Virus record (IMG/VR): IMGVR_UViG_3300044498_000050
DNA length: 42,729 bases
Origin: a virus
Reading direction: 5' to 3' (one strand)
The notes below the pieces were generated by a model. The model saw nothing but the letters and a program-made list of their open reading frames with translations, did no database searches and was not told the DNA's origin. Both the position numbers and the translations under genes were made by a program. This document shows, one piece after another, positions 9,867-41,097 of this stretch. Positions within the stretch are counted from its first letter, which is position 1, and the number at the start of each line of letters is the position of its first letter.

Positions 9867-9882
9867 GCAGCAGGAAGCCACC

Positions 9883-10579: not shown

Positions 10580-10608
10580 ACGGCCCCCTCGGGGGCCGTC
10601 TTCTTTAT
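10580..10608. terminator. bidirectional rho-independent terminator between convergent arms
   Basis: CGGCCCC-CTCG-GGGGCCG hairpin flanked by TTTAAA on one side and TCTTCTTTAT on the other. It sits between the plus-arm stop (10545) and the minus-arm stop (10605). Confidence 0.7.
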
Positions 10609-10709
10609 GGGAGGTTGGCAATCACCAACCAGATCACGCAGGTCCAGAAGGCTGCCAGGACGGCGGCGCAGCAGCGCCACACGAGCGCGCGGAAGTTGTG
10701 GTCGGTCAT
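10605..10709 (-). CDS. 34-aa single-pass membrane peptide
   Basis: MTDHNFRALVWRCCAAVLAAFWTCVIWLVIANLP. The ATG overlaps the upstream stop (ATGA). It is below the track cutoff as a standalone gene and is in frame with track ORF 10605..10865. Confidence 0.4.
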   Translation of the reverse strand: MTDHNFRALVWRCCAAVLAAFWTCVIWLVIANLP

Positions 10710-10873: not shown

Positions 10874-10944
10874 TGGGTTCTCCTTAATGCCGCATAACGT
10901 AATTGGCGGAGAACCAGTCTAGCAGGGTCGTGTACCCCAGGGTG

Positions 10945-12045: not shown

Positions 12046-12053
12046 GGCGTGCC

Positions 12054-22563: not shown

Positions 22564-24221
22564 AGGATGCCTCCACCTTCGACTACGGCCTGCCAGCCAA
22601 CGAAGATAGTATCGGCTGCCCCACGCACACGCATCGACAGCGACCCGTACCGGCCAGTGCCCACGGCCCCGACCCAGGCTTCGTAGGACGAAGTGGTCCC
22701 AGCCCACTTCGCCACGTCCCACAGGCCGATGTCCCAGAAGGAGTCAGCCTGGGGCAGGAAGGGCGGCGAGACGTTGGGCGGCTGGAGATTCCACTCCGCG
22801 TTCAAACGAGCGATCACGCCCGGTGCGGTGTTGGCGATGAAGCTCGGCTTGACCATCAGGAAGCGCTTGACGAACGTGCCCTCGCCAAGAGTCTGGAAGG
22901 AGGTGACCACCGATCCCTGCAGATCCTTGCCAGGGACATCGTCCACCTCGCCGTCCGACTCCCCTTCGAACAGGAGCCAGACGTTGCCCGCGTAGTCGCC
23001 CCCATAACTGCGGCCGTTGAACGTATCGACGGTGTTCATCGGGTAGCCACGCAGCATGCAGAAGGCCTTGTTATTGACTTCGAACGCCCACTGGATGTCG
23101 ATAACGCCGCGAAGCTCGGGCACCTTGATGACCAGCAACTGCTCGTGCGGGAGGAACTTCACCTCCCAGTAGAAGTCGCTGATGGTCTCGGCTACCTGGG
23201 CCGCCACTTCGGAATTGATCCGCGCTGCAGCCTGGGCATGCGTGTAGAAGCCTTCGCCCCGCATCAACTCGGTCATGAACGACAGGCCACGCTCGCTGAT
23301 GATCGCAATGTCGGCGTTGTACTGGGTGAAGAACCGGTGCCCGACCGGCACGCGCCCGATGTACCAGCGGCCCTGCAGGGCGAAGCCCGCATTCTCCAAA
23401 CCCTCCATCCCGGTGCCGTACACCAGCACGTCACCCTCGGTGCTGATGATCACCAGCTTGTTGTCCATGCCGCCGCCGGTTGCCCCGAGGCCGCCGGCAG
23501 CGCTGCCGTCGAAGGTCCAGTTGATGACGGCAGCAATGGACCCGCCATTGGGGAACAGCGACCCTACGTCGAACTCCTCCATGTTCCCGGCGATGACTCC
23601 CGTCGGCAGCGCCCACATGACGTTGGTGCCTGTCTGTGTAAACACCAACTGCGTCTTGAAGACCGTGACGAAGTTGAACGTCGTCGGGTCCACGTTGGAT
23701 ATCTGGCCGGTGCCCGACCCCATGGTGTGCTGAAGCCAAGCCACACCGTCATATGTCCAGTAGCCACCCCCAGGATTCACGGCCACCAGGAAGTGCTGGC
23801 CCGCGTTGGTGGTGTAGTTCAGCGATGTCCACTCCCCAGGCCGGATGGTGCTGGGCACGTTGATCAGCGTCGTCGGCACAACGCTGGAAGCGCGCTCCAT
23901 CGTCACGTCGTAGATGTTGCCGACCGAGTTGGCCGCGAAGTGCTTGGGAGACTCGGATGGCGACCGGTACGTCATCAGCGACCGGATCTCGCTGCCCATG
24001 TTGCTGACCCAGCGACGATAGCCTTTGCGCAGCATGCACCCCAGGTCGCGGGGGATCAGGTTGTTCAGCACGATGGCCGTCTGCGGGTTGCCCCCCGGCA
24101 GGGGCGACGAGGAATCGAGGCCAGCGATAGGCGAAGGGAACGCGTAAGCCTGATGCGACTGAGTCGCAAAGGAGCGCCTGGGGATGTACTTGCGCGGATG
24201 GGGCAGGGGGGTGAGTGCCAT
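22560..24221 (-). CDS. large tail/nozzle-type structural protein (553 aa)
   Basis: Start MALTPLPHP at 24221 overlaps the upstream TAA by 1 nt. Position after an adaptor-like gene, size and beta-rich composition suggest a structural role. No enzymatic motif seen. Confidence 0.5.
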   Translation of the reverse strand: MALTPLPHPRKYIPRRSFATQSHQAYAFPSPIAGLDSSSPLPGGNPQTAIVLNNLIPRDLGCMLRKGYRRWVSNMGSEIRSLMTYRSPSESPKHFAANSVGNIYDVTMERASSVVPTTLINVPSTIRPGEWTSLNYTTNAGQHFLVAVNPGGGYWTYDGVAWLQHTMGSGTGQISNVDPTTFNFVTVFKTQLVFTQTGTNVMWALPTGVIAGNMEEFDVGSLFPNGGSIAAVINWTFDGSAAGGLGATGGGMDNKLVIISTEGDVLVYGTGMEGLENAGFALQGRWYIGRVPVGHRFFTQYNADIAIISERGLSFMTELMRGEGFYTHAQAAARINSEVAAQVAETISDFYWEVKFLPHEQLLVIKVPELRGVIDIQWAFEVNNKAFCMLRGYPMNTVDTFNGRSYGGDYAGNVWLLFEGESDGEVDDVPGKDLQGSVVTSFQTLGEGTFVKRFLMVKPSFIANTAPGVIARLNAEWNLQPPNVSPPFLPQADSFWDIGLWDVAKWAGTTSSYEAWVGAVGTGRYGSLSMRVRGAADTIFVGWQAVVEGGGIL

Positions 24222-24442
24222 TACCGCACCGTGTCGTAGGGCCGTTGCTGGGACCACGCCTCGGCCATGGAATGCGCCTGGGCCTCGCAGTCCTCCAGCG
24301 CGCCGCTGGAGCAGACATAGTCCCCGCGCTGGTCGGTGCAGATGAACGTCCTGCGCCGGAATGCAGGCAACCGATTGTTGGGGTCTGGAACGTCTTCCAG
24401 AAGCTCGGTGATGGCCCAGCCAGGGGGGAGGTTCACGGCCAT
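24221..24442 (-). CDS. hypothetical protein (73 aa)
   Basis: Track ORF, packed between structural genes. Confidence 0.45.
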   Translation of the reverse strand: MAVNLPPGWAITELLEDVPDPNNRLPAFRRRTFICTDQRGDYVCSSGALEDCEAQAHSMAEAWSQQRPYDTVR

Positions 24443-25242: not shown

Positions 25243-25884
25243 TTACTTGCGGCCTTGCGGCAGTTGCGAGGGCGGGGTGACCTTGGCCGCCTGCTCCAGG
25301 GCCTGTGCAGCCTGCAGCTTGCGGTTCTCGGCTTCCAAGGCCTCGATCCTGGCAAGCAGGGCGTCGTTGCCCTTGGTCTTCTCGATGAAGCGCTTGGCCG
25401 CCGCCTTCAACTCGTGCGCACCCATGAAGTTCATGCCGCTGTCGGCAAGGTCGGCAAGCTGCTCGACAGTGCGGATCTTGAAGTGCAGTAACTCCTCGAC
25501 CTGGGACTCGGTCAGGAACGGCGCCACCTTCAGCGGCGTGCCGATGATCTGCTCCTTCTCGCCGGCCAGGAACTGCTGCCAGTGCTGCGGGAAGCGCTTG
25601 ATGTGCTGATCCCACACGGGCTCGCGGATGATCACGTTCTTCTCCCCGGGCATCATCATCTCAACGTACGGCACGTCCTTGTAGACTGGGCGTTGCTGCC
25701 TGTCGGACTCCGCCTGATCGATGCGCGGCTTCATGAAGAACTTCACGTGCAGCCTGTCGTCCCCGGGACCGGGCCACGCCATCTGCCCCGGGCTGCGGGC
25801 CGTCAGGCCGTTGTCGAACTTGGTCCAGTCGGTCGGACCAGAACTGGCTTGCAGGGCTTCAACCTGCGCTGCGTCGAGTGCCAT
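25243..25884 (-). CDS. hypothetical virion-module protein (213 aa) with C-terminal coiled coil
   Basis: Start MALDAAQ at 25884 after AAGGA. C-terminus ALLARIEALEAENRKLQAAQALEQAAK. Confidence 0.5.
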   Translation of the reverse strand: MALDAAQVEALQASSGPTDWTKFDNGLTARSPGQMAWPGPGDDRLHVKFFMKPRIDQAESDRQQRPVYKDVPYVEMMMPGEKNVIIREPVWDQHIKRFPQHWQQFLAGEKEQIIGTPLKVAPFLTESQVEELLHFKIRTVEQLADLADSGMNFMGAHELKAAAKRFIEKTKGNDALLARIEALEAENRKLQAAQALEQAAKVTPPSQLPQGRK

Positions 25885-25966
25885 TTGGGTTGTCCTTATG
25901 CGTGTAAACAAGCGACGCCGGGAGTAGAGCATGGCCGTGGGCGCCGCACGGCCATGCCCAGGATCG

Positions 25967-26592: not shown

Positions 26593-27300
26593 CTACCGGG
26601 CCCGCAGCCGCGCAGGCGGCTCGATCTCGCCCTCGGTCTCCGGACCAACCCGCAGGATGGCCGGCGGCTCGGGCTCGGGCGGCGGCGGCTGCGGCCCCAT
26701 GGCCGGCGTCGCGCTGGCCGCCGATGCCAGTCCGAGAGTGGACTGGCCGGTGACCAGGGACACGCCCGAGCGGTTGACCCAGCCAGTCTCGACCACGGCA
26801 CCGTTCGCCACACCGGCAGCGGCCGTGACGATCTTGCCCAGGAAGCCAGTGAAGGCCGGTCCTGCGCCAGCGTCGCGGCTGCCACCATTGCCAGCGCCGC
26901 CGATGCCGAAGCCTGCGGTGTAGACCAGCGGCGTGCCATCCGGGTTGCTGCGCCCGCCTCCGATGTACATGAGGGTGCTGTTGGCCGACGCCGTGCCATC
27001 GGGCTTCGTGACGCCCAGGGTGTAGTCATCGGTGAAGCCGGCAGCCACGATGCTGGCCGGTGCCGTCAGGCCGATGGTGAGGTTGGCGCCGAACCCGATG
27101 CCGGTGGACAGGCCGCCAGTCGAGGCATTGCCGCTGGCCGGGTAGCCAGGGGTGCCTGGGCTGCCGCTGTTGGGCACCTGCACGTCGCGGTCGAAGGGCG
27201 AACCCTTGGGACCGGACAGGAGATCGAAGAGGACGGCTTGGCCCGCGCTCGGGTTGGCGAGACTCTGGGCGAGGGTGCTGCCTGGGAGGGATGCGGGCAT
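26593..27300 (-). CDS. Gly-rich capsid-associated protein (possible decoration/cement protein), 235 aa
   Basis: Immediately downstream of the capsid gene, with an AAGGAG RBS. G/A/T-rich beta-type composition and a Pro/Glu-rich tail. Confidence 0.45.
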   Translation of the reverse strand: MPASLPGSTLAQSLANPSAGQAVLFDLLSGPKGSPFDRDVQVPNSGSPGTPGYPASGNASTGGLSTGIGFGANLTIGLTAPASIVAAGFTDDYTLGVTKPDGTASANSTLMYIGGGRSNPDGTPLVYTAGFGIGGAGNGGSRDAGAGPAFTGFLGKIVTAAAGVANGAVVETGWVNRSGVSLVTGQSTLGLASAASATPAMGPQPPPPEPEPPAILRVGPETEGEIEPPARLRAR

Positions 27301-29593: not shown

Positions 29594-29989
29594 TCAGCGG
29601 TCACCCAGGTCGGCAATGACCTGGGCAATATCGTTACGCGTAATTGCACCGTGGCCCTCGCCCCGGCGGTACTCGTCGCGCTTCTTCTGGGCCTGCGCCC
29701 AGGTGTCCTTGAAGTCGTCGATGGTCGTCAGGTTGTGGCGCTTCATGTACTCGCGGTGCTTGGTGCGCGTGGAGATGTCCGTGCCGTCGGTGGCCCGCAG
29801 GCCCTCGTAGTGCCGGTCCCCGGCCAATGCGTTGTTCAGTGCAGCGCCCGTATTGCCGGGTGTGAACCATCGCTCGACCGTCTGGCCGCAGCACACGAAT
29901 GGCCGGGGATTGAAGCAGTGCTCGCGGATCGTGCGGTACACGCTGTACTCGCGCTCGCACTCCTGGCACCTGAAGTCGTAGGTAGGCAT
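29594..29989 (-). CDS. FmdB-type zinc-ribbon protein (131 aa)
   Basis: MPTYDFRCQECEREYSV...FVCCGQTVERWF gives a CxxC...CC knuckle pair like the FmdB/CxxC_CxxC_SSSS family. In frame with the 3' end of track ORF 29594..30715. Starts 2 nt after the portal stop. Confidence 0.6.
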   Translation of the reverse strand: MPTYDFRCQECEREYSVYRTIREHCFNPRPFVCCGQTVERWFTPGNTGAALNNALAGDRHYEGLRATDGTDISTRTKHREYMKRHNLTTIDDFKDTWAQAQKKRDEYRRGEGHGAITRNDIAQVIADLGDR

Positions 29990-29991
29990 GG

Positions 29992-32145
29992 TTAACCCTG
30001 TGGCGGCATCTCGGGCGGCGGCTGCATCGGCGGATTGCCAGGAGGCGGCGGAAGGCCCCCGGGAGGCCCTCCAGGCCCCGGAGGGCCGCCCGGGGGCCCT
30101 GCGGCTCCTGGCGGGCCGCCTGGGCCCCCTGGCGGGGGCATCTCGGGCGGAGGCTCGGGCGGGATGGCCGGCTGGACACCCATCTGCTGCGCCGCCGCCA
30201 GATCCAGGCCAGCGCTGACCCTCTTCTCCAGCGCTGTGGCGCGCGACTGGTCGGCGCTTGCCTTGTCCTTCTCGACCTTCGCCTCCTGCTCGGGGTCGGG
30301 CTTGGCCGGCGGCGGCTGGCTTGCGGCCAGGATGGCCTGATCGAGCACGGTCTCGATCTCCTTGGAGACCCTGAAGCCGCCCAGGCCCCACTTCATCATC
30401 TGCAGCAGCACCGGCACGGCCGTCGGCATGGTCTGCATCATGGTGCCGGTGTCGGACAGGAAGCCGCCGACGGCTTCCATGAACTGGGTGCGGCTGTCGC
30501 GCTCCTGCGCCCAGTCCACCATCGCCATGGTCTCGCTCTCGACCGTGATGCGGTACTTCTTGCTCTCGGCGCCGCTCTTGAGGTACTCCACGGCCTGCTG
30601 GGCCATGGGTGCGTCCTCGGACAGCATGATGTTTGAACGCTCGATGATGGTCTCGGCCTGGAAGTGGTAGCAGAAGATCTGGCTCCTGATGCGCTGGCCG
30701 GCGGCCACCCAGCACCCGATCTGCTGCTGCTTGAACTGCAGGCGGTTGCCACCGAACTGCGCTTTAAGCTGCTGCGCCCCGAGGGTCTCGTCGGGGTTCG
30801 TCATGCCACGCATGATGTCCCCGATCCCGAGCACCTCGTAGAGCGTGCCCTTGTGGGACTCGCGCTCCGCCGTCAAGCGCTCGATCACGCCGGCCACCAC
30901 GTCGATGGGCACGAAGTCGATGGACCCCTTGATGCCGCCCTTCTCCGCGAAGGCGGCCCAGTTGTCCACCGGGATCATCTGGTTCTCCAGGCCCTCGCTG
31001 AAGATGCGCCCGAGCGGCGTGCTGGTCTTGTCGTAGGCGCCGACCACCTTGCAGGCGCGGATGAGGTACTTCAGGCGCGTGGATAGCTCATCGATCTGGC
31101 TGTACTGGTCCTGGGCCATCAGGTAGTCGGCCCGGGGCATCAATTTGGACGTGGTGGTGTTGGCGATCAGCGGCTGCGGGCACGGGAAGAAGCCCCGGAG
31201 CTTCATCGGGTCTTCCTTGTGGTCGCAGATCAGGTTGTAGCCCATGACGTGCCAGTAGGCGCACTTGGTCGTCTTGTCCCAGATCTCAAAGACGCCCGCC
31301 TTCTCCCACGGGTCGTTCTGCGGCGAGATGTTGTCGCCACGGGCCTTCTGCTTGCTGATCGGCACGTCCTTGCCGATCTTGTCCCCGAAGCGCGCTATCA
31401 ACTCCTCGCGGTTCATGTACACGCGCCGCGCCACCCAGCGCACGTCCTGCCAGACCCTGGCCGGCGACCACCAGAAGTCTTCCCAGTAGACGTAGTCGGC
31501 CGGCGCGTCCTCGTGCGTGACGGCCTCGTACTCCACGGGCTCGGCCAGGACCACCTGGGACTCGGGATCGATCACGGGCTCGGTGCTGGTCTTCTCGGTC
31601 TCGACCTCGTAGCGGTACCAGACCTGTCCCAGGCCGACGATCAGGTAGTCGCCTACCGCCTGCCGCGTGATCTCCGGGTAGGTGCTCTCGTCGTCTTCTT
31701 CCACGTCGTTGTTGAGCATCCTCTGGAGGATGTTGCCCGCCACGCGTGCCACGTCGTCGTTGCTGTCCTTGTACGCGTTGCTGACATCGACCTTCGGCGG
31801 CTTCGCATACAGGCTCGACTTCAGCACCTCGGTGTTGGACCAGAACAGGTTGATCTTGCTGTCCGCGTTGTCGAGCGCAGCGCTGTCGCGCTCGTCCAGG
31901 TAGCGATGCACGAGGCGCCTGCCTTGCGTATGGAACTTGCTGAGTTCCTTCTTGGCGGCCTGGAGTTCCTTCTCCCACACCTCGGCCAGCTTGGTGGGAT
32001 CCTTCTTGGCCTCCTTGGCCTGCTTGTCAGGAAGCTGCTTGCCGGCCTCGACCTTGGACTTGGGGCTGCCCCCTTGCTTGGCGTAGCCTTGGGATTCGTC
32101 ACCAGGAACTGGAGGTTGGCCTGGAACCGGAGGTTGCATGGGCAT
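29992..32145 (-). CDS. portal protein candidate (717 aa) with Pro/Gly-rich C-terminal tail
   Basis: Directly downstream of terL (TGATG overlap), with a size typical of a portal. The last ~70 aa are PPEPPPEMPPPGGPGGPPGAAGPPGGPPGPGGPPGG... Confidence 0.65.
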   Translation of the reverse strand: MPMQPPVPGQPPVPGDESQGYAKQGGSPKSKVEAGKQLPDKQAKEAKKDPTKLAEVWEKELQAAKKELSKFHTQGRRLVHRYLDERDSAALDNADSKINLFWSNTEVLKSSLYAKPPKVDVSNAYKDSNDDVARVAGNILQRMLNNDVEEDDESTYPEITRQAVGDYLIVGLGQVWYRYEVETEKTSTEPVIDPESQVVLAEPVEYEAVTHEDAPADYVYWEDFWWSPARVWQDVRWVARRVYMNREELIARFGDKIGKDVPISKQKARGDNISPQNDPWEKAGVFEIWDKTTKCAYWHVMGYNLICDHKEDPMKLRGFFPCPQPLIANTTTSKLMPRADYLMAQDQYSQIDELSTRLKYLIRACKVVGAYDKTSTPLGRIFSEGLENQMIPVDNWAAFAEKGGIKGSIDFVPIDVVAGVIERLTAERESHKGTLYEVLGIGDIMRGMTNPDETLGAQQLKAQFGGNRLQFKQQQIGCWVAAGQRIRSQIFCYHFQAETIIERSNIMLSEDAPMAQQAVEYLKSGAESKKYRITVESETMAMVDWAQERDSRTQFMEAVGGFLSDTGTMMQTMPTAVPVLLQMMKWGLGGFRVSKEIETVLDQAILAASQPPPAKPDPEQEAKVEKDKASADQSRATALEKRVSAGLDLAAAQQMGVQPAIPPEPPPEMPPPGGPGGPPGAAGPPGGPPGPGGPPGGLPPPPGNPPMQPPPEMPPQG

Positions 32146-33509
32146 CAGATCCTCCCGTTGCGCTGGTTATGCGGATTGACCGTGGCGTGGAGCATGTCGA
32201 GCGTGAACGTGTGGCTCAACGGCGGGATTATGGGCTCCTGCCGTGCCGGTGCCGGCGGATCGAGCACGTTGAGCCTCGCCGCCCCCTCCATGTACGCGTC
32301 AGCCGGGTGGCTGGCCCAGTTGTGCTCTGGCTCCGACGAGAACGTCTTGGTCTCCTCGTCGTACTTGTAGGCATAGGCCCGCATCGCCATCAGGAACGGC
32401 TCGCAGACCGGCGCGTTGCTGATGCGCACCCGCCGCAGCATCAAGCGCCCCGCGTTCACAGAGTCAGACTTGCGCCTTTGCTCGTTTACACGAACTTCGC
32501 ACTTGTCCCAGGGAGGCTGGCGGAGGAAGGTCTCGACGCTGGAGCGCTTGGACTGGAACGTCTTGACGCGTGCGTCGTGGGGCAGCACGAGCACGTCGGC
32601 GCGGGGTTGCTTGCTGAGGCGGGCGGCCCACTCCTCGGCGTCCATGCCTGACCCATCGTCGTAGTGGAAGATCTCGTAGCCGCCCTTCAGCCGGCGCCAC
32701 CACACGAAGGCTGCCTTGTCGCGGTAGCCGATGTCGCTTGTGACCCAGACCTCGCCTTCCTGGGAGTTGTCGATGGGACAGATCCGCCCTTCCTTCTCCA
32801 TCTGCTCGATGTAGCGCCCGAAGATGGCGCCCACATTGGCGGCGGAGAAGTCGCAGTCGTACTCCTGGCGATAGAGTTCATCGGGCATCTCCGCGCGCTC
32901 GTCGTTGAGCACGGATTCAGGTATGTGCTGGGTGTCCTTGACGGTCAGGTGGGAGTGGAACCACGCCGGGTTCTTCTTCGCCAACTGCATGATGTCGTGG
33001 AAGTGGTTGTAACCCCGGGGTGTGCTGATGAAGGCTGCCCAGCCTCCGTTGCCGGCAAGGATCGGGCGGAATATGGACCACGCCCGGGGATCCGAGAGGG
33101 CGGACTCACTCATCACGAGGCCGAAGGGGTTGGCGCCGACGATGCTGTCGTAGTAGTCCGAGCCCACAAGCTGCCAGATCGCGCCGTTCTTCAGCGTGAT
33201 CTTCATCTCTGTCCTGTTCGTGTCCTGCCGGATGCTCTGGGGCATCGCGGTATCGATGATCTTCTGGCCGTTGTTATCGAAGCCGTCCCAGATGACCTTC
33301 CTGGCCTGCTTGTGGTTGGGCAGCATGTGGAAGTACATGCCTGGGCGTTCAAACATCATCTTGACGGTCTGGTGGACCATCGTCAGATCCTTGCCGTAGC
33401 GCCTCGGCCAGCAGGCGGCCGCCCTCAGGCCGCCGTGGTCGAAGTAGCGCATCAACTCCTTCTGCGGCGGCCTGGGCGTGAACCCGTTGGGCAGGATCAG
33501 GTCGGTCAT
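32145..33509 (-). CDS. terL: terminase large subunit
   Basis: N-terminal ATPase-like CWPRRYGKDLT (Walker A-like) and GLVMSESA (Walker B-like). Size 454 aa, immediately upstream of the portal. I prefer the MTDLILP start at 33509 because it forms ATGA with the upstream stop. Confidence 0.75.
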   Translation of the reverse strand: MTDLILPNGFTPRPPQKELMRYFDHGGLRAAACWPRRYGKDLTMVHQTVKMMFERPGMYFHMLPNHKQARKVIWDGFDNNGQKIIDTAMPQSIRQDTNRTEMKITLKNGAIWQLVGSDYYDSIVGANPFGLVMSESALSDPRAWSIFRPILAGNGGWAAFISTPRGYNHFHDIMQLAKKNPAWFHSHLTVKDTQHIPESVLNDERAEMPDELYRQEYDCDFSAANVGAIFGRYIEQMEKEGRICPIDNSQEGEVWVTSDIGYRDKAAFVWWRRLKGGYEIFHYDDGSGMDAEEWAARLSKQPRADVLVLPHDARVKTFQSKRSSVETFLRQPPWDKCEVRVNEQRRKSDSVNAGRLMLRRVRISNAPVCEPFLMAMRAYAYKYDEETKTFSSEPEHNWASHPADAYMEGAARLNVLDPPAPARQEPIIPPLSHTFTLDMLHATVNPHNQRNGRI

Positions 33510-33616
33510 ATGAACAGGCCGCCCAGCCACCATGCCAAGTGGACACCCAGCCAGACGGCCGCCAAACCGGTGATCACGTACATGATCACCTGGAACCAGA
33601 CGGGCGGCTCCTTCAT
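33506..33616 (-). CDS. 36-aa membrane peptide
   Basis: MKEPPVWFQVIMYVITGLAAVWLGVHLAWWLGGLFI. The ATG overlaps the upstream TGA by 1 nt and its own stop overlaps the terL ATG. Confidence 0.45.
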   Translation of the reverse strand: MKEPPVWFQVIMYVITGLAAVWLGVHLAWWLGGLFI

Positions 33617-33852
33617 CAGTACGCCCTCGCGCACTCCTGACGCCAGTGGTGCCGGTCCACGTAGCCGTTGCTGTACCTGCAGTACCGCACGCCGCGCTCG
33701 ACCCACTCGCGGGTCAGGTGGACGCGGCTGCGGTGCTCTGGCCGCACGTCGATGTCGATGGCCGGGATGGTGACGGTGACATCCCCATCCGGGGTGGTGA
33801 CGGCGCAGCCGGCGATGATGCCGATAGCGGCAATGGCGAGGAAGGTCTTCAT
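33616..33852 (-). CDS. lipoprotein (78 aa)
   Basis: MKTFLAIAAIGIIAGC has a lipobox (IAG-C). ATGA overlap with the upstream gene. The mature part has 2 further Cys. Confidence 0.55.
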   Translation of the reverse strand: MKTFLAIAAIGIIAGCAVTTPDGDVTVTIPAIDIDVRPEHRSRVHLTREWVERGVRYCRYSNGYVDRHHWRQECARAY

Positions 33853-34100
33853 TGCGGCCTCCGGGGCGGGAATGCGGGCTGGTACACACCAGGGAACAGG
33901 CGGTAGCACACGCGCGGCAGCCGCACGTCGCGGTTGCGATCACTGCGGCGGTTCATGATCCGGCAGTAGTCGCGCACGGCCTCGCGTATCTCCGGATCCA
34001 GGTTCCGATCACGTTCGCGCCAGCCGCCTGGGCCGGGTTGAGCGCTTGCGGCAGTCATCGCCGCGCAGGCCGCGAGGGCCAGAAGTAGTTGCTTGATCAT
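33849..34100 (-). CDS. secreted small basic protein (83 aa)
   Basis: Signal peptide MIKQLLLALAACAAMTAASA-Q. Arg-rich mature part with Cys residues. ATGA overlap with the upstream gene. Confidence 0.55.
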   Translation of the reverse strand: MIKQLLLALAACAAMTAASAQPGPGGWRERDRNLDPEIREAVRDYCRIMNRRSDRNRDVRLPRVCYRLFPGVYQPAFPPRRPQ

Positions 34101-34240
34101 GCCCATACCTTCCCGATTACCAATGATGCGACCCAGCACGCGAGGCCGGCGGCCACGAGACTGAAGTTGCCGGCCGGCACGCCCAGGGCGGCCAGGATGA
34201 ACAGCACGAGTGCTGCGATTAGAAGCGCGGTGGTGAGCAT
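34097..34240 (-). CDS. 47-aa two-TMD membrane protein (holin-like topology)
   Basis: MLTTALLIAALVLFILAALGVPAGNFSLVAAGLACWVASLVIGKVWA. GGAGGG RBS 6 nt upstream. Confidence 0.5.
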   Translation of the reverse strand: MLTTALLIAALVLFILAALGVPAGNFSLVAAGLACWVASLVIGKVWA

Positions 34241-34274
34241 GGATGCCCTCCAGGTAATGAATACGTGTAAACGC

Positions 34275-34907
34275 TCAAGCATGATGGACCCATATCGCAG
34301 GCGCGGCCTGCTCGATGACGCCAAGAGCCCGAGCATCGTCGCGGATGAACGGGGCCATGTGCCATGATGGCACATAGATGCGTTTAAACCCCAGGTTCTC
34401 AAGCACGGCGCTGTCGGGCGCGTCGTACTGCAGCGTACGCACGAAGGCCGTGGACGCATCGAACACGTCCAGGACCAGGATGGTGCCGTTGGTGGCCGCC
34501 ATGGCGCGGTCGAGCACCTTCGGCACGTTGCAGTGGCCGAGCACGTAGGCCAGCACGGTGATGTCGAACGGCTTGGCCGCGTCGGGCAGCACGTAGTCGT
34601 GGGCGTCGCACAGGACGCGCAGGCCGCCGGCCTGGACAAGCTCAAGCTGACTCGGGCTGCGGTTGACCAGGGTGAAGCGCAGATCCGGGCGCTCATCCTG
34701 CCAGTACGCCTCCATGCCGGCGACGCCGCAGCCCAGGGAGAGGATCCTGGCCTTGTGGGGCGGCGCCAGCAGATCGAGCACCGCATGCGAGTGCAGGCGC
34801 TCGTCGGTGTCCAACTGCCATAGCTGGAAGACCGTGCGGCCCTGGTCGAGATGCTCGCGTGTCGCCTGCTCGACCTCGACCTCGTCGTCGTAGAGCGGAT
34901 GGGTCAT
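34275..34907 (-). CDS. class I SAM-dependent methyltransferase (substrate unknown)
   Basis: Motif I ARILSLGCGVAG. Downstream FDITVLAYVLGH and GTILVLDVF are typical of the Rossmann-fold MTase core. No DPPY/NPPY or cytosine-5 motifs seen. The MTHPLYDD start forms ATGA with the upstream stop. Confidence 0.65.
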   Translation of the reverse strand: MTHPLYDDEVEVEQATREHLDQGRTVFQLWQLDTDERLHSHAVLDLLAPPHKARILSLGCGVAGMEAYWQDERPDLRFTLVNRSPSQLELVQAGGLRVLCDAHDYVLPDAAKPFDITVLAYVLGHCNVPKVLDRAMAATNGTILVLDVFDASTAFVRTLQYDAPDSAVLENLGFKRIYVPSWHMAPFIRDDARALGVIEQAAPAIWVHHA

Positions 34908-35425
34908 CCGTCGTTCCAGTCGCGCCAACCGCTATCGCCCGGTTGCATGCCCACGCACGCACGCACCTCGGCTTGCAGCTTGAGCATGCGCTGCTGATGC
35001 CGCTCGCCCATGCTGCGGGCATGCGCAGACGCCTGGGCCTGCTTGGCCTCGACCTCGGCCGCGAACATGGCGTGCTGCTCCGCTTCGCGCAGGCGCTTCA
35101 ATGCCGCCGCCAACTCGGCCTCGATCTCGGCATCGTCCAGGCCGACCACCCCTGCGGTACCGCACAGGACGGGCATCACCTTCGCACGCTCCATGTACCC
35201 GGAGTACGAGACCACGGCCTCCAGGCGTCCCGCCTGCAGGTCGCGCTCGCGACCAGCGTGGTCGCTCTTGGTCATGTGGGTGAGGCCGATGTACCTGCGC
35301 CTGGGGGCGCGCTGGCCGCAGGCGTCGGCCGGCATCGGCTCGCCCCACCAGCGGTTGTACTCGCAGGCGAGACCGTTGAAGTCTGGGGATGTTGCAGGGG
35401 GATAACCCATCATGTGGTCGCGCAT
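34904..35425 (-). CDS. hypothetical protein (173 aa) with C-terminal coiled coil
   Basis: Track ORF. First gene downstream of the iteron array. No recognisable motif. Confidence 0.5.
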   Translation of the reverse strand: MRDHMMGYPPATSPDFNGLACEYNRWWGEPMPADACGQRAPRRRYIGLTHMTKSDHAGRERDLQAGRLEAVVSYSGYMERAKVMPVLCGTAGVVGLDDAEIEAELAAALKRLREAEQHAMFAAEVEAKQAQASAHARSMGERHQQRMLKLQAEVRACVGMQPGDSGWRDWNDG

Positions 35426-35529
35426 GGTGCAAGCCTCAGGTTACATGGTCCGGTGGAATGGGTAAAATTTGGATGGGAACGTATGGTACCCAATCCAACA
35501 TGCGCGAGCGGGGATCGAATGCATCAGCC

Positions 35530-35690
35530 GACGCGCATATAAGCGCATGCGCATATAGGCGTACGCGCATGTACTACGTACGTCCATGCGCGTACTACGT
35601 ACGTCCATGTCAACATGGACGTGCGTAGTACTACGTACGTCCATGTCACTACGTACGTCCATGTCACTACGTACGTCCATGTCAGCCCCA
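35530..35690. repeat. iteron array: six copies of an ~18-bp unit ACTACGTACGTCCATGTC (one inverted) plus GCGCAT(ATA) repeats
   Basis: Direct copies at 35573-35588, 35594-35610, 35629-35647, 35648-35665 and 35666-35683. Inverted copy at 35613-35631, forming a 10-bp perfect palindrome with 35601-35610. GCGCAT at 35533, 35543, 35549 and 35565. Confidence 0.9.
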
Positions 35691-35721
35691 GGCTTGCGAT
35701 TACGCGTAACGTTAATGCGCA

Positions 35722-36096
35722 TCATGCGACCTTATGCACGACCACGGTAAGAGCGCCGCCGGCCGCACCTGTGACCTCTGATCGTGTGAGCTTGGGCGCC
35801 GCGAACTCCGCGAAGTGGCCGAGCGCACGAGCGGCGCCTACAGGATCCGGGGGGCGTGCGGGATACATGAGCTTGCCGTGCGCATCGTAGGTAGCTGGCG
35901 CGCCTTCGGCTATCTGCTCGACCCACTTGCGCACGTTATCCCTGTTGTCGTCGAGCAGGCGCTGTACCGTCTCCCGGAATTCGGTCGTGACCTTGTTAGG
36001 CGTGCCCTTGGCACGGCCGGCAGGCCGTGTGCCCTTAGCGGGTCCGCGCTTCTTAGGTTCGCCTACTGTAGGTTGCATGCCCATGGTCGCGAGCAT
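35722..36096 (-). CDS. terminase small subunit-like DNA-binding protein (start uncertain: 36096, 36084 or 36078)
   Basis: KKRGPAKGTRPAGRAKGTPNKVTTEFRE... followed by a helical region and ...APKLTRSEVTG. This resembles a small-terminase family I recall with a GRxKGxxNK N-terminus. It is the first gene of the minus arm. Confidence 0.45.
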   Translation of the reverse strand: MLATMGMQPTVGEPKKRGPAKGTRPAGRAKGTPNKVTTEFRETVQRLLDDNRDNVRKWVEQIAEGAPATYDAHGKLMYPARPPDPVGAARALGHFAEFAAPKLTRSEVTGAAGGALTVVVHKVA

Positions 36097-36499
36097 AGGC
36101 GCATGCTGCCGGCCTTGCAATCCCTGCCTAGGCAGTGAATTTTCACTCCTGGGCAGGCCGGCCGGCACCTGCAAGTACAGGCGCCGACACAGGCGCTCAG
36201 CCGCAGCCCCAGGATGGTTTCCCATAGGGCAGCCGGCCGGCCGACACAGCGACCCAGACCCATCCACCCCGTTTTCTATATACCCCCCCTAAAAAGCCGT
36301 AAGTAAATGTACACTTATCATCCTAACTCTCTCTTATATAGAAGTGCCTGTGTCGGCAGTGTCGGCAGTGTCACCCCTATAGGTTTTCACCCTGGGGTGC
36401 GGCTGTGTCGTGCCTGTGCCGGCCTGTGCCGACGGCCTGCCGGCAAAGAAAATGTGTAACAGTCCTCAGCCTGGGGCTACAGGTGCCGATAATGAAGAC
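36097..36499. promoter_or_regulatory. divergent early/late control region with AT-rich core and repeated operator-like motif
   Basis: This is the only extended AT-rich stretch in the genome (about 36271-36345, containing TATATA twice). CTGTGTCGGC-type repeats lie on both sides and in both orientations. The two arms diverge from here. Confidence 0.6.
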
Positions 36500-36856
36500 A
36501 TGAACACAGCACTGCTCGACACGGCCACCCCACAGGCCGAACCCCAAGCGCGCAAGCGCGGCCGGCCTGCCAAGTACGCAAGCGCAGCCGAGCGTCAGGC
36601 CGCATACCGTGCGGCGAACACCATCAAAACCTATCGCATCGACGGCAAGGCTGCCGGCACTGTGGCCGAGCTTGCGGCGCTGTACGAGTGCGATGAGACG
36701 CACGTCGTGAACAACTTGCTGCGCTTTGCGCTTGCGAATCGCAACTGGCGCGCCATGGGAATCGGTGGATGGGACATCACCGACAAGCGCCACGCTAGCG
36801 GCAAGCGCGCGGCACCCGTTCGCGACGATTCCCTTGATAGCTTTTCGTTCGTTTAA
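36500..36856 (+). CDS. small DNA-binding-type protein (start uncertain; alternative ATG at 36449)
   Basis: RKRGRPAKYASAAERQAAYR is an AT-hook-like GRP motif that recurs in small phage/plasmid regulators. First gene of the plus arm. Confidence 0.5.
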   Translation: MNTALLDTATPQAEPQARKRGRPAKYASAAERQAAYRAANTIKTYRIDGKAAGTVAELAALYECDETHVVNNLLRFALANRNWRAMGIGGWDITDKRHASGKRAAPVRDDSLDSFSFV

Positions 36857-39473: not shown

Positions 39474-39584
39474 ATGGAATTGTGGGCCATCGGGCTGGTA
39501 ACCCTAATCGTCGGCTTTGTCATCGGCTTCGCCCTGGGTTGGTGCTTCGCCTTTCGCATCATCACGGAATGGATGTACAAATGA
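39474..39584 (+). CDS. 36-aa membrane peptide
   Basis: Hand-translated as MELWAIGLVTLIVGFVIGFALGWCFAFRIITEWMYK. GGAG RBS. The stop overlaps the next ATG (ATGA). Confidence 0.45.
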   Translation: MELWAIGLVTLIVGFVIGFALGWCFAFRIITEWMYK

Positions 39585-39823
39585 GCACCAAGAAAGAGGC
39601 CGAGCAGGCCATCAAGCGCCTGATCAAGGAGGGGCTGGTGGTCGGCCAGGACAAGGGCGGCAAGCACCTCGTGCTGATCCTGCGCGGCGGCACTGTATAT
39701 ACGCGTGCCGGATCGCCCAGCGACTGGCGAGCAGTGCGCAACATGGAAAGCGACATCAGACGCTTGACTCGTCCGCAAGACTCAGGCTATACTGCGTCTG
39801 TCGTTTACACACTTGGAGATTGA
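39581..39823 (+). CDS. HicA-like (YcfA family-like) small protein, 80 aa
   Basis: KKEAEQAIKRLIKEGLVV...GGKHLVL...RAGSPSDWRAVRNMESDIRRL matches the K..E....L...G....G..H.....PSD.RA..N.....RR pattern I recall from phage HicA-like annotations. Confidence 0.4.
   Translation: MSTKKEAEQAIKRLIKEGLVVGQDKGGKHLVLILRGGTVYTRAGSPSDWRAVRNMESDIRRLTRPQDSGYTASVVYTLGD
39764..39793 (+). promoter_or_regulatory. sigma70-like promoter candidate TTGACT-N18-TATACT
   Basis: TTGACT at 39764-39769 and TATACT at 39788-39793, inside the 3' end of the HicA-like gene and 31 nt upstream of the SprT-like ATG. Confidence 0.4.
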
Positions 39824-39824
39824 G

Positions 39825-40415
39825 ATGAAGCAGATGAACCGTGAAGAGTGGCTGCAGCACGCTGTCAGCATGATCCGCGCCGACACCATGAAGCGCGACA
39901 GCGACATCACGATCCCGCCCGTGCAGGTGTCGTGCTCGTGGCCCGGTGGCGGCGACAGCCAGAAGCGCATAGGCGAGTGCTGGGGCAAGGACGCCAGCAA
40001 GGCCGACATCAACGAGGTGTTCATCAGCCCGCGCATAGAGGACAGCGCCAAGGTGTTGTCGATCCTGGCGCACGAGCTAGTGCATGCCGTGGACGACTGC
40101 AAGAGCGGCCACCGTGCGCCGTTCGTGCGCCTCGCCCAGCGGATGGGCCTGGACGGCAAGCCCACCATCATGGGCCTGCGCGTCGAGATCCTCACGAAGC
40201 TCACCGAGCGCATGGTCGCCAAGCACGGCGTGTACCCGCACCTGACGCTCGACAAGAGCAAGTCGCCCGTGAAGAAGCAGACCACCCGCATGATCAAGTG
40301 CGCGTGCGACAACTGCGGCGCCATCTGGCGCATGAGCCAGACCGTGATCGAGACCGTGGACGGCAACATGTCGTGCCCCGCCTGCCACGCTCGCGACAAC
40401 GTGATCGTCGGCTAA
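39825..40415 (+). CDS. SprT-like zinc metalloprotease with C-terminal zinc ribbon
   Basis: HELVHAVDD (HExxH) plus CACDNCG...CPACH. ATG 39825 after GGAG. Confidence 0.65.
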   Translation: MKQMNREEWLQHAVSMIRADTMKRDSDITIPPVQVSCSWPGGGDSQKRIGECWGKDASKADINEVFISPRIEDSAKVLSILAHELVHAVDDCKSGHRAPFVRLAQRMGLDGKPTIMGLRVEILTKLTERMVAKHGVYPHLTLDKSKSPVKKQTTRMIKCACDNCGAIWRMSQTVIETVDGNMSCPACHARDNVIVG

Positions 40416-40834: not shown

Positions 40835-40968
40835 CTCGTCAGCGCATGGCACATGCGTGGCCCTGGGGGCCAGATCCTTATGGGGATGAGCCCGCCGCCC
40901 CTACAAATGTGCTTAGGCGGGCACCCTACCACCACCAAGCCACAGGCTTAACGTCACCAGGAATTATC

Positions 40969-41097
40969 ATGATCAAGACTCTCATCACCTTCGTCATCGC
41001 CGGCATCGGCTTCATCGTCACCGTGGACTACGCCCACGCCGAGCGCATCGTCTGCTACCGCGACTACAACGGCAACGCCGTTTGCGAAGTCCGGTGA
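40969..41097 (+). CDS. 42-aa signal/TM peptide with two Cys
   Basis: MIKTLITFVIAGIGFIVTVDYAHAERIVCYRDYNGNAVCEVR. In frame with track ORF 40846..41097. AGGAA RBS. Confidence 0.4.
   Translation: MIKTLITFVIAGIGFIVTVDYAHAERIVCYRDYNGNAVCEVR

What the first reader, a model, noticed from the sequence alone, without database searches (positions are those of the whole stretch)
33506..34240. Four small envelope-targeted proteins translationally chained into terL, with no recognisable endolysin in the genome
Immediately upstream of terL lies a run of four small genes: a 47-aa two-TMD protein, an 83-aa signal-peptide protein, a 78-aa lipoprotein (lipobox IAG-C) and a 36-aa TM peptide. Three of the four junctions, including the one into terL, are ATGA overlaps; the lipoprotein to 36-aa peptide junction is a 1-nt TGATG overlap. 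The cassette is preceded by a GTTTACAC motif copy at 34265.

The topology resembles holin plus spanin-like components. Three things are odd. There is no muramidase, amidase or transglycosylase motif anywhere in the 42.6 kb. The cassette sits at the head of the packaging operon rather than at the end of the late genes. Its stoichiometric coupling to terminase is unusual.

Either lysis uses an unrecognised enzyme, or this is a different envelope-directed system (exclusion, or signalling between the envelope and packaging).
Basis: partly seen in the sequence, partly recalled or inferred. Interest (0 to 1): 0.62.

Follow-up and report, generated by a model that had tools for sequence, protein, structure and literature searches.

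The report
Small envelope-protein cassette upstream of phage terminase
A complete 42.6-kb soil phage genome carries four tiny, conserved membrane, periplasmic and lipoprotein genes just before its large terminase gene; they are most likely part of its cell-bursting (lysis) machinery, placed much as in phage T7, while the wall-degrading enzyme of this whole phage clade is still unidentified.

Summary
Four real genes of 47, 83, 78 and 36 aa lie at 33506-34240 (minus strand) with the stated ATGA/TGATG overlaps, an invariant lipobox and purifying selection. The window is a complete circular genome (127-nt terminal overlap). No ORF matches a muralytic family in Pfam, PHROGs or NCBIfam, and the unassigned ORFs have no PDB sequence match. 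The one 'amidase' PHROG hit is a mislabelled P22 gp10-like tail protein.

T7 has the order holin, terS, spanins, terL, with its endolysin 26 kb away. Overlapping junctions occur throughout this late operon.

The signal-peptide protein (g83) and the lipoprotein (g78) always occur together. They also appear as a pair in front of an unrelated terL in another phage, so they form a mobile two-gene module. Both are ORFans with no fold match.

Close relatives carry other tiny membrane peptides in the same terS-terL slot, or nothing. A complete relative without the pair also lacks a recognisable endolysin.

Best reading (about 45%): a late envelope/lysis module with a spanin-like pair, plus an unrecognised endolysin encoded elsewhere. 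Rivals are exclusion or receptor masking, other cargo, and truly endolysin-free lysis. No earlier scan note on other DNA describes this cassette.

The parts
34097..34240 (-). g47: 47-aa inner-membrane peptide with two hydrophobic segments and no charged C-terminal tail. Present in 6 of the 10 contexts that carry g83/g78.
   Evidence: hydropathy; presence table; dN/dS about 0.15. No family hit in Pfam, PHROGs or NCBIfam.
33849..34100 (-). g83: 83-aa exported protein. It has an Ala-rich N-terminal hydrophobic segment with an invariant A-x-A|Q-P site. The mature part is about 63 aa, Arg-rich (net +7, pI 11), with two invariant Cys and a Pro-rich tail.
   Evidence: (9 clusters, all at least 68% identical). 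AF2 model: helix 36-55 at pLDDT 86-93, a short helix 63-68, and a disordered cleavage region. No BFVD fold match.
33616..33852 (-). g78: 78-aa lipoprotein precursor with lipobox [IL][AST]G-C. The lipid Cys16 and Ala at +2 are invariant, as are two further Cys (58 and 74). The mature part is 63 aa.
   Evidence: The exhaustive HMMER search found only about 5 representative clusters. AF2 model: flexible linker plus a three-stranded beta-meander at pLDDT 86-92. No PDB or BFVD fold match. Absent from 185,579 species-representative bacterial and archaeal genomes.
33506..33616 (-). g36: 36-aa single-pass membrane peptide. Its stop overlaps the terL start (ATGA).
   Evidence: Present in all complete in-clade contexts and absent from L032.
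32145..33509 (-). Large terminase subunit (454 aa). It has no clear Shine-Dalgarno sequence of its own and starts at the ATGA overlap with g36.
   Evidence: phrog_2, 1e-31; Terminase_6C.
34265..34272 (-). One of 14 copies of the dispersed GTTTACAC motif, in the 34-nt gap between the methyltransferase-like gene and g47.
   Evidence: No sigma-70-like promoter on the coding (minus) strand and no terminator anywhere in 32000-36600; one plus-strand promoter-like site at 35440-35468, at chance level.
34275..34907 (-). Class I SAM methyltransferase-like gene. This is lineage-specific cargo, found only in the window and L042.
   Evidence: sub-threshold Methyltransf hits; N-terminal part of phrog_424.
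34904..35425 (-). 173-aa unknown protein that follows the terS-like gene. Divergent homologues occur in relatives that carry the cassette.
35722..36096 (-). TerS-like gene, which marks the upstream edge of the variable terS-terL cargo slot.
   Evidence: conserved in relatives; weak match to the pre-terL protein of ppBjS10J-1.
10605..10709 (-). 34-aa single-pass membrane peptide, ATGA-coupled to a 55-aa ORF at the far end of the late arm. It is an alternative candidate for a holin-type function.

Best explanation
The four genes are a late-expressed envelope (lysis) module that sits in a variable cargo slot between the small and large terminase genes, as the holin and spanin genes do in T7.

Its core is the two-gene pair g83 (exported, basic, disulfide-bonded helical hairpin) plus g78 (outer-membrane lipoprotein with a flexible tether and a small disulfide-bonded beta domain). 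I infer that the two proteins bind each other in the periplasm and carry out the last lysis step, breaching the outer membrane once the wall has been degraded. This would work either as a very short two-component spanin (if the g83 signal stays uncleaved) or as a lipoprotein-plus-soluble-partner variant (if it is cleaved).

g47 and g36 are inner-membrane peptides that I infer act as holin/antiholin-type or accessory membrane factors.

The wall-degrading enzyme is encoded elsewhere in the conserved backbone by a family that current profile libraries do not recognise.

Shown: gene reality, topology signals, conservation, strict g83/g78 co-occurrence and mobility, late-operon position, and absence of detectable muralytic domains.
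Inferred: g83-g78 binding, outer-membrane disruption, and the roles of g47 and g36.
For: - g83 and g78 co-occur in 10 of 10 contexts. In L032 they move as a pair in front of an unrelated terL, without g47 or g36.
- The order (exported or anchored protein first, lipoprotein second) with a 4-nt overlap matches the 'separated' two-component spanin architecture.
- The combined periplasmic length of about 126 aa lies inside the published 62-300 range. Two periplasmic Cys in each partner is a common spanin pattern (PMC6139136).
- The T4 o-spanin is 83 aa with predicted secondary structure (beta and a C-terminal helix), and lies far from the T4 holin and endolysin.
- T7 has the same map logic: holin, terS, spanins, terL, with a remote endolysin.
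- The genes lie inside the late operon with no internal coding-strand promoter or terminator.
- Apart from one 34-aa peptide at the end of the late arm, they are the only membrane or exported proteins found on the late strand.
- All four are under purifying selection. The Ala at +2 of g78 is invariant, which by the E. coli Lol rule (my own knowledge) predicts outer-membrane sorting.
- In L003/G001 the same slot holds three chained TM peptides plus a 52-aa ORF with net charge +12. That resembles the phiKT disruptin class (56 aa, +7; bioRxiv 10.1101/515445) and suggests non-orthologous replacement of an outer-membrane-disruption function.
- No integrase was found, and g78 is absent from the species-representative bacterial genome set. 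The genes are therefore expressed in a lytic cycle, not from a prophage.
Against: - No endolysin lies nearby or anywhere detectable, so the 'lysis cassette' lacks its usual anchor gene.
- g83 has a weakly hydrophobic N-terminus (19-residue hydropathy 1.56) and an invariant A-x-A|Q site, so it is probably cleaved. A defining i-spanin feature would then fail.
- Its structured part is a short helical hairpin, not a long coiled coil. g78 has a compact beta domain, not a Pro-rich extended one.
- g47 and g36 lack the charged C-terminal tail typical of holins and match no holin family.
- Relatives with 77-84% identical terL lack the pair, and L010 has no membrane gene in the slot at all. The module is therefore dispensable at this position.
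- No sequence or fold similarity to any known lysis protein was found.
Confidence: 0.45

Rival explanations
1. Superinfection exclusion or receptor masking. The outer-membrane lipoprotein g78, with its periplasmic partner g83, binds and blocks the phage's outer-membrane receptor, as Cor (phi80, N15) and Llp (T5) do. This would prevent re-infection and stop progeny being inactivated on cell debris. g47 and g36 would be Imm-like or Sp-like inner-membrane blockers of DNA entry.
For: - g78 is a small (63-aa mature) lipoprotein predicted to go to the outer membrane, with a compact folded domain, like Cor and Llp (my own knowledge of those proteins).
- The module is patchily distributed and exchanged by recombination: in L002, dS of the cassette is 0.04-0.2 against 0.67 for terL. 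This is typical of accessory host-range or exclusion cargo.
- It is dispensable at this position in relatives.
- The phage also encodes two further Sec-exported proteins, which suggests a broader investment in the envelope.
Against: - Known Cor and Llp act alone, whereas here a strictly co-inherited partner exists.
- The genes sit in the late operon, coupled to terL, with no coding-strand promoter of their own. Exclusion genes are usually early or prophage-expressed.
- No homologue occurs in any species-representative bacterial genome.
- There is no sequence or fold similarity to any annotated exclusion protein.
Confidence: 0.2
2. Accessory cargo with some other envelope role, neither lysis nor exclusion. 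Examples would be modulating host envelope stress, vesiculation or cell-wall turnover during late infection. On this reading the terS-terL slot is simply a recombination hot-spot that collects small genes.
For: - The slot's content varies from lineage to lineage: a methyltransferase in the window and L042, different TM peptides in L003 and L007, and a 245-aa soluble protein in L010.
- All four families are narrow ORFans.
Against: - There is strong purifying selection, and the pair is retained after transfer to an unrelated phage backbone, again directly 5' of terL.
- The slot's cargo is mostly membrane-active small proteins, which is more specific than random cargo.
Confidence: 0.18
3. Endolysin-free lysis. 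The clade has no muralytic enzyme of its own, and the small envelope proteins kill the cell by recruiting or de-repressing host autolysins, or by blocking wall synthesis. Precedents are corticovirus PM2 and the single-gene lysis proteins of small phages.
For: - Two complete genomes of the clade (the window and G001) show no peptidoglycan-hydrolase domain, not even a virion-associated one.
- The genomes encode an unusual number of tiny membrane peptides and exported proteins.
- A precedent exists: Krupovic et al. 2007, Mol Microbiol 64:1635 (citation seen; its content is from my own knowledge).
Against: - Absence of HMM hits is weak evidence. A structure-based survey recovered putative endolysins from phages with no sequence-detectable ones (PMC12596118).
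- About 30 ORFs remain unassigned, and only two could be folded here.
- G001 lacks g83/g78 yet must still lyse its host.
- The syntenic BUCT555 uses an ordinary M15 endolysin.
Confidence: 0.08
4. Signalling or physical coupling between the envelope and DNA packaging, with the cassette proteins made in fixed ratio with terminase.
For: ATGA coupling of g36 to terL. The g83-g78 pair again lies directly 5' of an unrelated terL in L032.
Against: - terL is coupled to whatever gene precedes it, including soluble proteins.
- Overlaps are general in this operon.
- Overlap does not fix stoichiometry.
- Periplasmic and outer-membrane proteins cannot contact cytoplasmic terminase.
- T7 shows the same juxtaposition for ordinary spanins.
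Confidence: 0.02

Closest known systems
Two-component spanins with 'separated' architecture (T4 PseT.3/PseT.2; T7 gp18.5/gp18.7 for map position)
   Same: - Adjacent gene pair in the late operon, with the exported or anchored protein first and a small outer-membrane lipoprotein second.
- Periplasmic Cys in both partners.
- Combined periplasmic length inside the known range.
- Located between terS and terL as in T7, and remote from any endolysin as in T4 and T7.
   Different: - g83 has a probable signal-peptidase I site and a weak hydrophobic segment in place of a stable TMD.
- g83 has no long coiled coil.
- g78 carries a folded beta domain, not a Pro-rich unstructured chain.
- No sequence or fold similarity to any known spanin.
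phiKT gp28 'disruptin' (cationic outer-membrane-disrupting lysis peptide)
   Same: Mature g83 is similar in size and charge (63 aa, net +7, against 56 aa, +7). It is partly helical and encoded among lysis-type small genes.
   Different: g83 has a Sec signal, two conserved Cys, nine Pro and an obligate lipoprotein partner. gp28 has no signal sequence and acts alone. The 52-aa, +12 ORF in the L003/G001 slot is a closer look-alike than g83.
Cor (phi80/N15/HK022) and Llp (T5) receptor-blocking lipoproteins
   Same: Small phage-encoded outer-membrane lipoprotein with a compact mature domain (properties of Cor and Llp are from my own knowledge).
   Different: Strict pairing with a second exported protein, late-operon expression, and no sequence or family match.
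Class II holins / pinholins (T7 gp17.5, phage 21 S68)
   Same: g47 has two hydrophobic segments and sits at the head of the module, next to the terminase genes, as T7 gp17.5 does.
   Different: g47 is only 47 aa, has one charged residue and no charged C-terminal tail. It is absent from 4 of 10 cassette-bearing contexts and has no family match.
PM2 lysis system (endolysin-independent lysis in a dsDNA phage)
   Same: No phage-encoded muralytic enzyme is detectable; small membrane proteins are the candidate effectors.
   Different: PM2 is a tailless, membrane-containing corticovirus. Here the absence rests only on failed homology detection. The content of the PM2 paper is from my own knowledge; only the citation was seen.

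Membership tests
Two-component spanin: o-spanin | N-terminal lipoprotein signal with a lipobox Cys, and no inner-membrane retention signal at +2 | tested here: met
   g78 matches a PROSITE-style lipobox pattern. G15, C16 and A17 are invariant in 14 sequences.
Two-component spanin: i-spanin | Type II inner-membrane protein with a stable, uncleaved N-terminal TMD | tested here: inconclusive
   g83 has one N-terminal hydrophobic helix (residues 3-18). Its hydropathy is weak (1.56 over 19 residues), and it is followed by an invariant A-x-A|Q-P-G segment that is disordered in the model. Cleavage is likely but was not measured, and no SignalP or TMHMM was available.
Two-component spanin | Adjacent i- then o-spanin genes (embedded, overlapped or separated) | tested here: met
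   g83 precedes g78 with a 4-nt ATGA overlap, and the two are always adjacent (10 of 10 contexts).
Two-component spanin | Periplasmic domains long enough to bridge the periplasm; periplasmic Cys for disulfide-linked dimers | tested here: met
   63 + 63 mature residues against the published 62-300 range. Two invariant periplasmic Cys in each partner; 507 of 528 known systems have at least one.
Two-component spanin | Complements a lambda Rz/Rz1 defect; required for outer-membrane disruption | not testable with these tools
   Needs the lambda Rz(am)Rz1(am) complementation assay.
Unimolecular spanin (T1 gp11 type) | One chain with an N-terminal lipobox and a C-terminal TMD | tested here: not met
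   g78 has no C-terminal hydrophobic segment. The TMD peptide g36 is a separate gene in another frame, and the arrangement is conserved in relatives.
Holin | Small membrane protein with at least one TMD and a charged, hydrophilic C-terminal domain, adjacent to the endolysin gene | tested here: not met
   g47 and g36 have TMDs but only 1 and 2 charged residues respectively and no C-terminal tail. No endolysin is adjacent, and there is no match to holin families in Pfam, PHROGs or NCBIfam. Failing the family test does not exclude hole-forming activity.
Disruptin (phiKT gp28 class) | Small, cationic, amphipathic-helical peptide without an export signal that disrupts the outer membrane on its own | tested here: not met
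   Mature g83 is 63 aa with net charge +7, but it has a Sec signal, Cys and Pro, and an obligate partner.
Cor/Llp-type exclusion lipoproteins | Sequence or family membership; acts alone on an outer-membrane receptor; expressed early or from a prophage | tested here: not met
   No PHROG, Pfam or NCBIfam match. Strictly paired with g83. Late-operon position. Receptor binding is not testable here.
Endolysin (any muralytic family), anywhere in the genome | Recognisable lysozyme, transglycosylase, amidase or peptidase domain | tested here: not met
   No hit in Pfam, PHROGs or NCBIfam across the plausible ORFs, and no PDB sequence match for the unassigned ones. phrog_5107 'amidase' is a mislabelled gp10-like tail protein. 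A fold-level test was run only for g78 and g83.

The most novel reading that the evidence does not exclude
This clade of tailed dsDNA phages has no endolysin at all. On this reading, lysis is driven by the small envelope-targeted proteins. The exported basic protein g83 and the outer-membrane lipoprotein g78 would hyper-activate or de-repress host autolysins or attack the outer membrane, and the tiny inner-membrane peptides would collapse the membrane potential or block wall synthesis. That would be a PM2-like or single-gene-lysis-like strategy not yet described for a tailed phage.
Probability: 0.07. Interest if true: 0.85.

Novelty: new variant of a known kind. Interest (0 to 1): 0.4.

Why it matters
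If g83+g78 disrupt the outer membrane, they would define a new and very small spanin-type system. Its 'inner' partner looks secreted rather than membrane-anchored. That would challenge the idea that a continuous inner-to-outer-membrane bridge is needed, and it can be tested directly with the standard lambda Rz/Rz1 complementation assay.

The terS-terL slot in this clade behaves as an exchange site for alternative small membrane-active modules: a lipoprotein pair, chained TM peptides, and a highly cationic peptide. That makes it a natural comparison set for outer-membrane-disruption solutions.

Separately, two complete genomes of this clade lack any detectable peptidoglycan hydrolase, even for entry. 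This points to an undescribed muralytic family, or less likely to endolysin-free lysis. Either is worth a fold-level screen.

Tried and rejected
- phrog_5107 'amidase' (565 aa) as the missing endolysin: rejected. It has no Pfam domain, and its homologues are deposited as tail tube B, neck or stabilization protein, i.e. P22 gp10-like.
- Endolysin beyond the window ends: rejected. The genome is a closed circle.
- Endolysin in the slot where syntenic BUCT555 keeps its holin and M15 endolysin: the window and its clade carry a 52-aa ORF, a Pro-rich 147-aa ORF or head-fibre-like ORFs there instead.
- Sec-exported 220-aa protein as an exported lysin: 32 homologues share a Gly-zipper, four-Cys core with almost no invariant catalytic-type residues, so it does not look like an enzyme. 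It was not folded.
- PDB sequence search of 15 unassigned proteins joined with GS linkers: every hit was to the linkers, which is an artefact of the trick. A second run on five virion/ejection proteins without linkers gave zero hits.
- Ejection-protein alignment for folding: only one relative was found, so this was abandoned.
- g78 family in bacterial genomes and in the metagenome collection: none, and three short contigs respectively; no new contexts. The hits L033 and L034 were spurious, antisense to a baseplate gene.
- Foldseek searches of g78 (PDB, BFVD) and g83 (BFVD): nothing significant.
- BLAST of the cassette proteins against the T7, BUCT555 and ppBjS10J-1 lysis proteins: nothing.
- Extra 531-544-aa ORF after the portal gene in L045 and G001: no Pfam domain.
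- An upstream ATG that would give a 61-aa g47 isoform (a dual-start idea): the extension is not conserved in L001, so it was not pursued.
Full report
WHAT IS THERE

On the minus strand, immediately 5' of the large terminase gene (32145-33509; phrog_2 at E 1e-31; Terminase_6C), lie four small ORFs:
- g47 (34097-34240): MLTTALLIAALVLFILAALGVPAGNFSLVAAGLACWVASLVIGKVWA, two hydrophobic segments.
- g83 (33849-34100): an N-terminal Ala-rich hydrophobic segment ending in A-S-A|Q.
- g78 (33616-33852): lipobox I-A-G-C.
- g36 (33506-33616): one hydrophobic segment.

g47/g83, g83/g78 and g36/terL are ATGA overlaps, and g78/g36 is TGATG. GGAGG-type ribosome-binding sites precede g47, g78 and g36. One of 14 GTTTACAC copies (0.22 expected by chance) lies at 34265-34272, in the 34-nt gap before g47. 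The region 32000-36600 contains no terminator-like site and no sigma-70-like promoter on the coding strand; the single plus-strand promoter-like site (35440-35468) is at the chance level. The genes are therefore read as part of the late operon, which starts at the divergent control region near 36.2-36.4 kb.

THE GENES ARE REAL AND CONSTRAINED

Against L001, L002 and L028, dN/dS is 0.14-0.6 for all four genes. In L032, synonymous sites are saturated (pS 0.78-0.88) while g83 and g78 remain 67% and 74% identical.

In 14 g78 sequences the lipobox Gly-Cys, the Ala at +2 and two further Cys (58 and 74) are invariant. In 10 g83 sequences the A-x-A|Q-P-G site and two Cys (46 and 65) are invariant.

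THE GENOME IS COMPLETE AND HAS NO RECOGNISABLE MURALYTIC ENZYME

The first and last 127 nt of the window are identical, so this is a circular assembly of 42,602 unique nt. Nothing can be hidden beyond the ends.

I scanned the plausible ORFs against Pfam, PHROGs and NCBIfam, each ORF against at least one of these libraries and most against two. I also ran the unassigned soluble proteins and five virion/ejection proteins against the sequences of all solved structures. No lysozyme, transglycosylase, amidase or peptidase family appears, not even the virion-associated one usual in podoviruses.

The single lysis-category hit is phrog_5107 'amidase' for the 565-aa protein at 22560-24257 (E 6e-82). 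This is a propagated label. The protein has no Pfam domain. Depositors call its homologues in Mx8, Mx9, BUCT555, and the Sulfitobacter, Rhizobium and Brucella phages tail tube B, neck, head-closure or stabilization protein, which makes it the P22 gp10-type tail hub.

A published survey shows that phages with no sequence-detectable lysis proteins often yield candidates once structures are compared (PMC12596118).

WHERE RELATIVES KEEP THEIR LYSIS GENES

Stenotrophomonas phage BUCT555 is syntenic with the window across the head-tail core (major capsid protein 70% identical). Its holin and M15 endolysin lie between homologues of window genes 26593-27300 and 25243-25932. In the window and its close relatives, that slot holds a 52-aa ORF, a Pro-rich 147-aa ORF or head-fibre-like ORFs, and never an endolysin.

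G001 is a complete relative (40,524 nt, terminal repeats, rated 100% complete). It shares the window's backbone but lacks all four cassette genes. Its lineage-specific ORFs also show no muralytic domain.

The missing enzyme is therefore a feature of the whole clade and is independent of the cassette. If an enzyme exists, it is most likely a backbone protein of an unrecognised family.

DISTRIBUTION OF THE CASSETTE

Both g78 and g83 are narrow ORFan families:
- g78: 13 clusters in 5.8 billion proteins, all at least 69% identical.
- g83: 9 clusters in the same collection.
- An exhaustive HMMER profile search of 1.84 billion representative proteins adds only a few more ~80-aa lipoproteins of the same build, plus one 108-aa protein that repeats the C-terminal 'EW[VI]..G...C.Y..G...C' motif.
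- None occurs in 185,579 species-representative bacterial and archaeal genomes.

Across all contexts fetched:
- g83 and g78 co-occur in 10 of 10 contexts.
- g36 accompanies them in every complete in-clade context.
- g47 is present in 6 of 10.
- The methyltransferase-like gene upstream is present only in the window and L042.

In L032, a contig with lower G+C and a terL only 28% identical, the g83-g78 pair again abuts terL, without g47 or g36. In L002 the cassette is much closer to the window (dS 0.04-0.2) than the neighbouring terL is (dS 0.67), which shows recombinational exchange.

Relatives with 77-84% identical terL carry other things in the same terS-terL slot:
- L003/G001: three chained 32-40-aa TM peptides plus a 52-aa ORF with net charge +12.
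- L007: one TM peptide.
- L010: a 245-aa soluble protein and no membrane gene.

The slot is thus a variable cargo site that mostly collects small membrane-active genes. The conserved, mobile unit is the g83-g78 pair.

STRUCTURE

AlphaFold2 on the g78 family gave mean pLDDT 71. The model shows a low-confidence tether of about 25 residues after the lipid Cys, then a confident (pLDDT 86-92) three-stranded beta-meander at residues 44-76.

AlphaFold2 on the g83 family gave mean pLDDT 72. The model shows the N-terminal hydrophobic helix, a disordered cleavage-site region, a confident helix at 36-55 packed against a short helix at 63-68 (each carries one conserved Cys, so a disulfide is inferred), and a Pro-rich tail.

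Foldseek found nothing significant for either protein in the PDB or BFVD libraries. Both are small, novel folds. Neither looks like lambda Rz (long coiled coil) or Rz1 (Pro-rich, unstructured). The published census stresses, however, that spanins are structurally diverse, and the T4 o-spanin is an 83-aa protein with predicted secondary structure.

ARE THE THREE 'ODD THINGS' ODD?

1. No endolysin. Yes, at profile level (see above).

2. Position at the head of the packaging genes. No. The annotated T7 record reads holin 17.5 (two TMDs), terS 18, Rz-like spanins 18.5/18.7, terL 19. The T7 endolysin is gp3.5, in the early/middle region. T4 spanins are likewise remote from its holin and endolysin. 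From my own knowledge, the lambda and P22 lysis cassettes also lie directly 5' of the terminase genes. The window's order (terS-like, two cargo genes, two-TMD peptide, exported protein plus lipoprotein, TM peptide, terL) is a close positional analogue of T7.

3. Translational chaining into terL. Real, but not special. ATGA or TGATG overlaps also join p173/methyltransferase, terL/portal, the 73-aa ORF/gp10-like gene and the fibre genes. In relatives, terL abuts or overlaps whichever gene precedes it. Overlap also does not fix stoichiometry.

INTERPRETATION

The best-supported reading is a late envelope (lysis) module whose core, g83 plus g78, performs the outer-membrane step. The supporting points are:
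- strict pairing and mobility of the two genes;
- the gene order, with the lipoprotein second;
- the predicted outer-membrane sorting of g78;
- conserved periplasmic Cys in both proteins;
- a combined periplasmic length (126 aa) within the published 62-300 range;
- late-operon expression;
- the T7-like map position;
- the apparent replacement of the pair, in a sister lineage, by a disruptin-like cationic peptide in the same slot.

The main weakness is that g83 looks like a cleaved secretory protein, not a membrane-anchored i-spanin. The strict i-spanin test is therefore inconclusive at best. I do not file the pair as a spanin family member; I say only that it most likely works like one. g47 and g36 fail the usual holin criteria (no charged tail, no family match) but remain the obvious late inner-membrane candidates, together with the 34-aa peptide at 10605-10709.

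I put this reading at about 0.45. The rivals are:
- Cor/Llp-like exclusion or receptor masking, 0.2. For: patchy, recombining distribution and a folded lipoprotein domain. Against: late expression and an obligate partner.
- Other accessory cargo, 0.18.
- Truly endolysin-free lysis, 0.08.
- Envelope-to-packaging signalling, 0.02.

COMPARISON AND NOVELTY

The closest known systems are separated two-component spanins (T4, and T7 for position), the phiKT disruptin, Cor/Llp lipoproteins and class II holins. The cassette matches none of them by sequence, profile or fold.

I rate it a new variant of a known kind: a phage late envelope or lysis module. Interest is moderate. The pair is directly testable by lambda Rz/Rz1 complementation. 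The clade-wide lack of any detectable peptidoglycan hydrolase points to an undescribed muralytic family or, with low probability, to endolysin-independent lysis in a tailed phage.

LIMITS

- Only two structure predictions were allowed, so the decisive fold screen of the roughly 30 unassigned ORFs could not be run.
- No SignalP, TMHMM or multimer prediction was available.
- The host is unknown. The only clues are a weak hit of the exported 220-aa protein to a Variovorax replicon and a PEP-CTERM exported protein in G001.

Noticed in passing
window 1-127 and 42603-42729: The first and last 127 nt are identical, which marks a circular assembly. The genome is complete at 42,602 nt, and an ORF runs across the junction (42199 through the wrap to 265, 222 aa, acidic C-terminal tail).
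   Followed up: yes
window 22560-24257 (-): The 565-aa P22 gp10-like tail-hub protein matches phrog_5107, which is labelled 'amidase' in the lysis category. RefSeq copies of Mx8, Sulfitobacter and Brucella phage records carry the same label. The protein has no Pfam domain, and GenBank depositors call it tail tube B, neck or stabilization protein. The annotation is probably propagated and wrong.
   Followed up: partly
window 34275-34907 (-) and 20398-21075 (-): The methyltransferase-like protein matches only the N-terminal part (positions 11-77) of phrog_424 (460 positions, 'PAPS reductase'). The PP-loop protein 14 kb away matches positions 164-342 of the same profile. The two may be a split version of a fused protein and so act together.
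   Followed up: no
L003 3522-3989 (= G001 about 6250-6720): In this sister lineage the terS-terL slot holds three translationally chained 32-40-aa TM peptides and a 52-aa Arg-rich ORF (net +12, no signal peptide, GC3 0.88). The last resembles the phiKT disruptin class.
   Followed up: partly
L002 3416-5359 versus window 32145-34100: Synonymous divergence of g36 and g78 (dS 0.04-0.2) is far lower than that of the adjacent terL (0.67). A recombination breakpoint lies at or near the g36/terL junction.
   Followed up: partly
window 9234-10545 (+): Two Sec-exported proteins end the early arm. The 220-aa one has a conserved Gly-zipper, four-Cys core (YAPPVGVTAPC...GMGWG...C.RR...C...PC). It has 32 homologues, one of them on a 448-kb bacterial contig, plus a weak hit in a Variovorax paradoxus replicon. 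It does not look like an enzyme.
   Followed up: partly
window 39474-39584, 39813-40415 and 40846-41097 (+): In the early arm, an HExxH SprT-like zinc-ribbon protein (phrog_6361; conserved in G001 and L045) lies between two tiny TM peptides. It is the only backbone-conserved unknown protein with an obvious hydrolase motif.
   Followed up: no
window 22102-22566 (-): An all-alpha ORF of about 155 aa (phrog_21390) occupies the position where G001 has a different 139-aa ORF that I judged GNAT-like by eye (no Pfam hit), and where BUCT555 and Mx8 have an annotated GNAT acetyltransferase.
   Followed up: no
L045 10576-12210; G001 10688-12283: Some relatives carry an extra 531-544-aa ORF with no Pfam domain between the portal and zinc-ribbon genes. 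The window lacks it.
   Followed up: partly
G001 29628-29822 (+) and 29906-30832 (-): G001 has a 64-aa two-TMD protein at the end of its late arm. The Pfam scan of its lineage-specific ORFs also gave PEP-CTERM, He_PIG and arabinofuranosidase-like hits. I attribute the PEP-CTERM hit, without confirmation, to the convergent 308-aa exported protein. PEP-CTERM suggests a Gram-negative host with an exosortase.
   Followed up: no
window, 14 sites (e.g. 604, 28358, 34265, 39803): GTTTACAC occurs 14 times on both strands against 0.22 expected. Its orientation does not follow the direction of transcription.
   Followed up: partly
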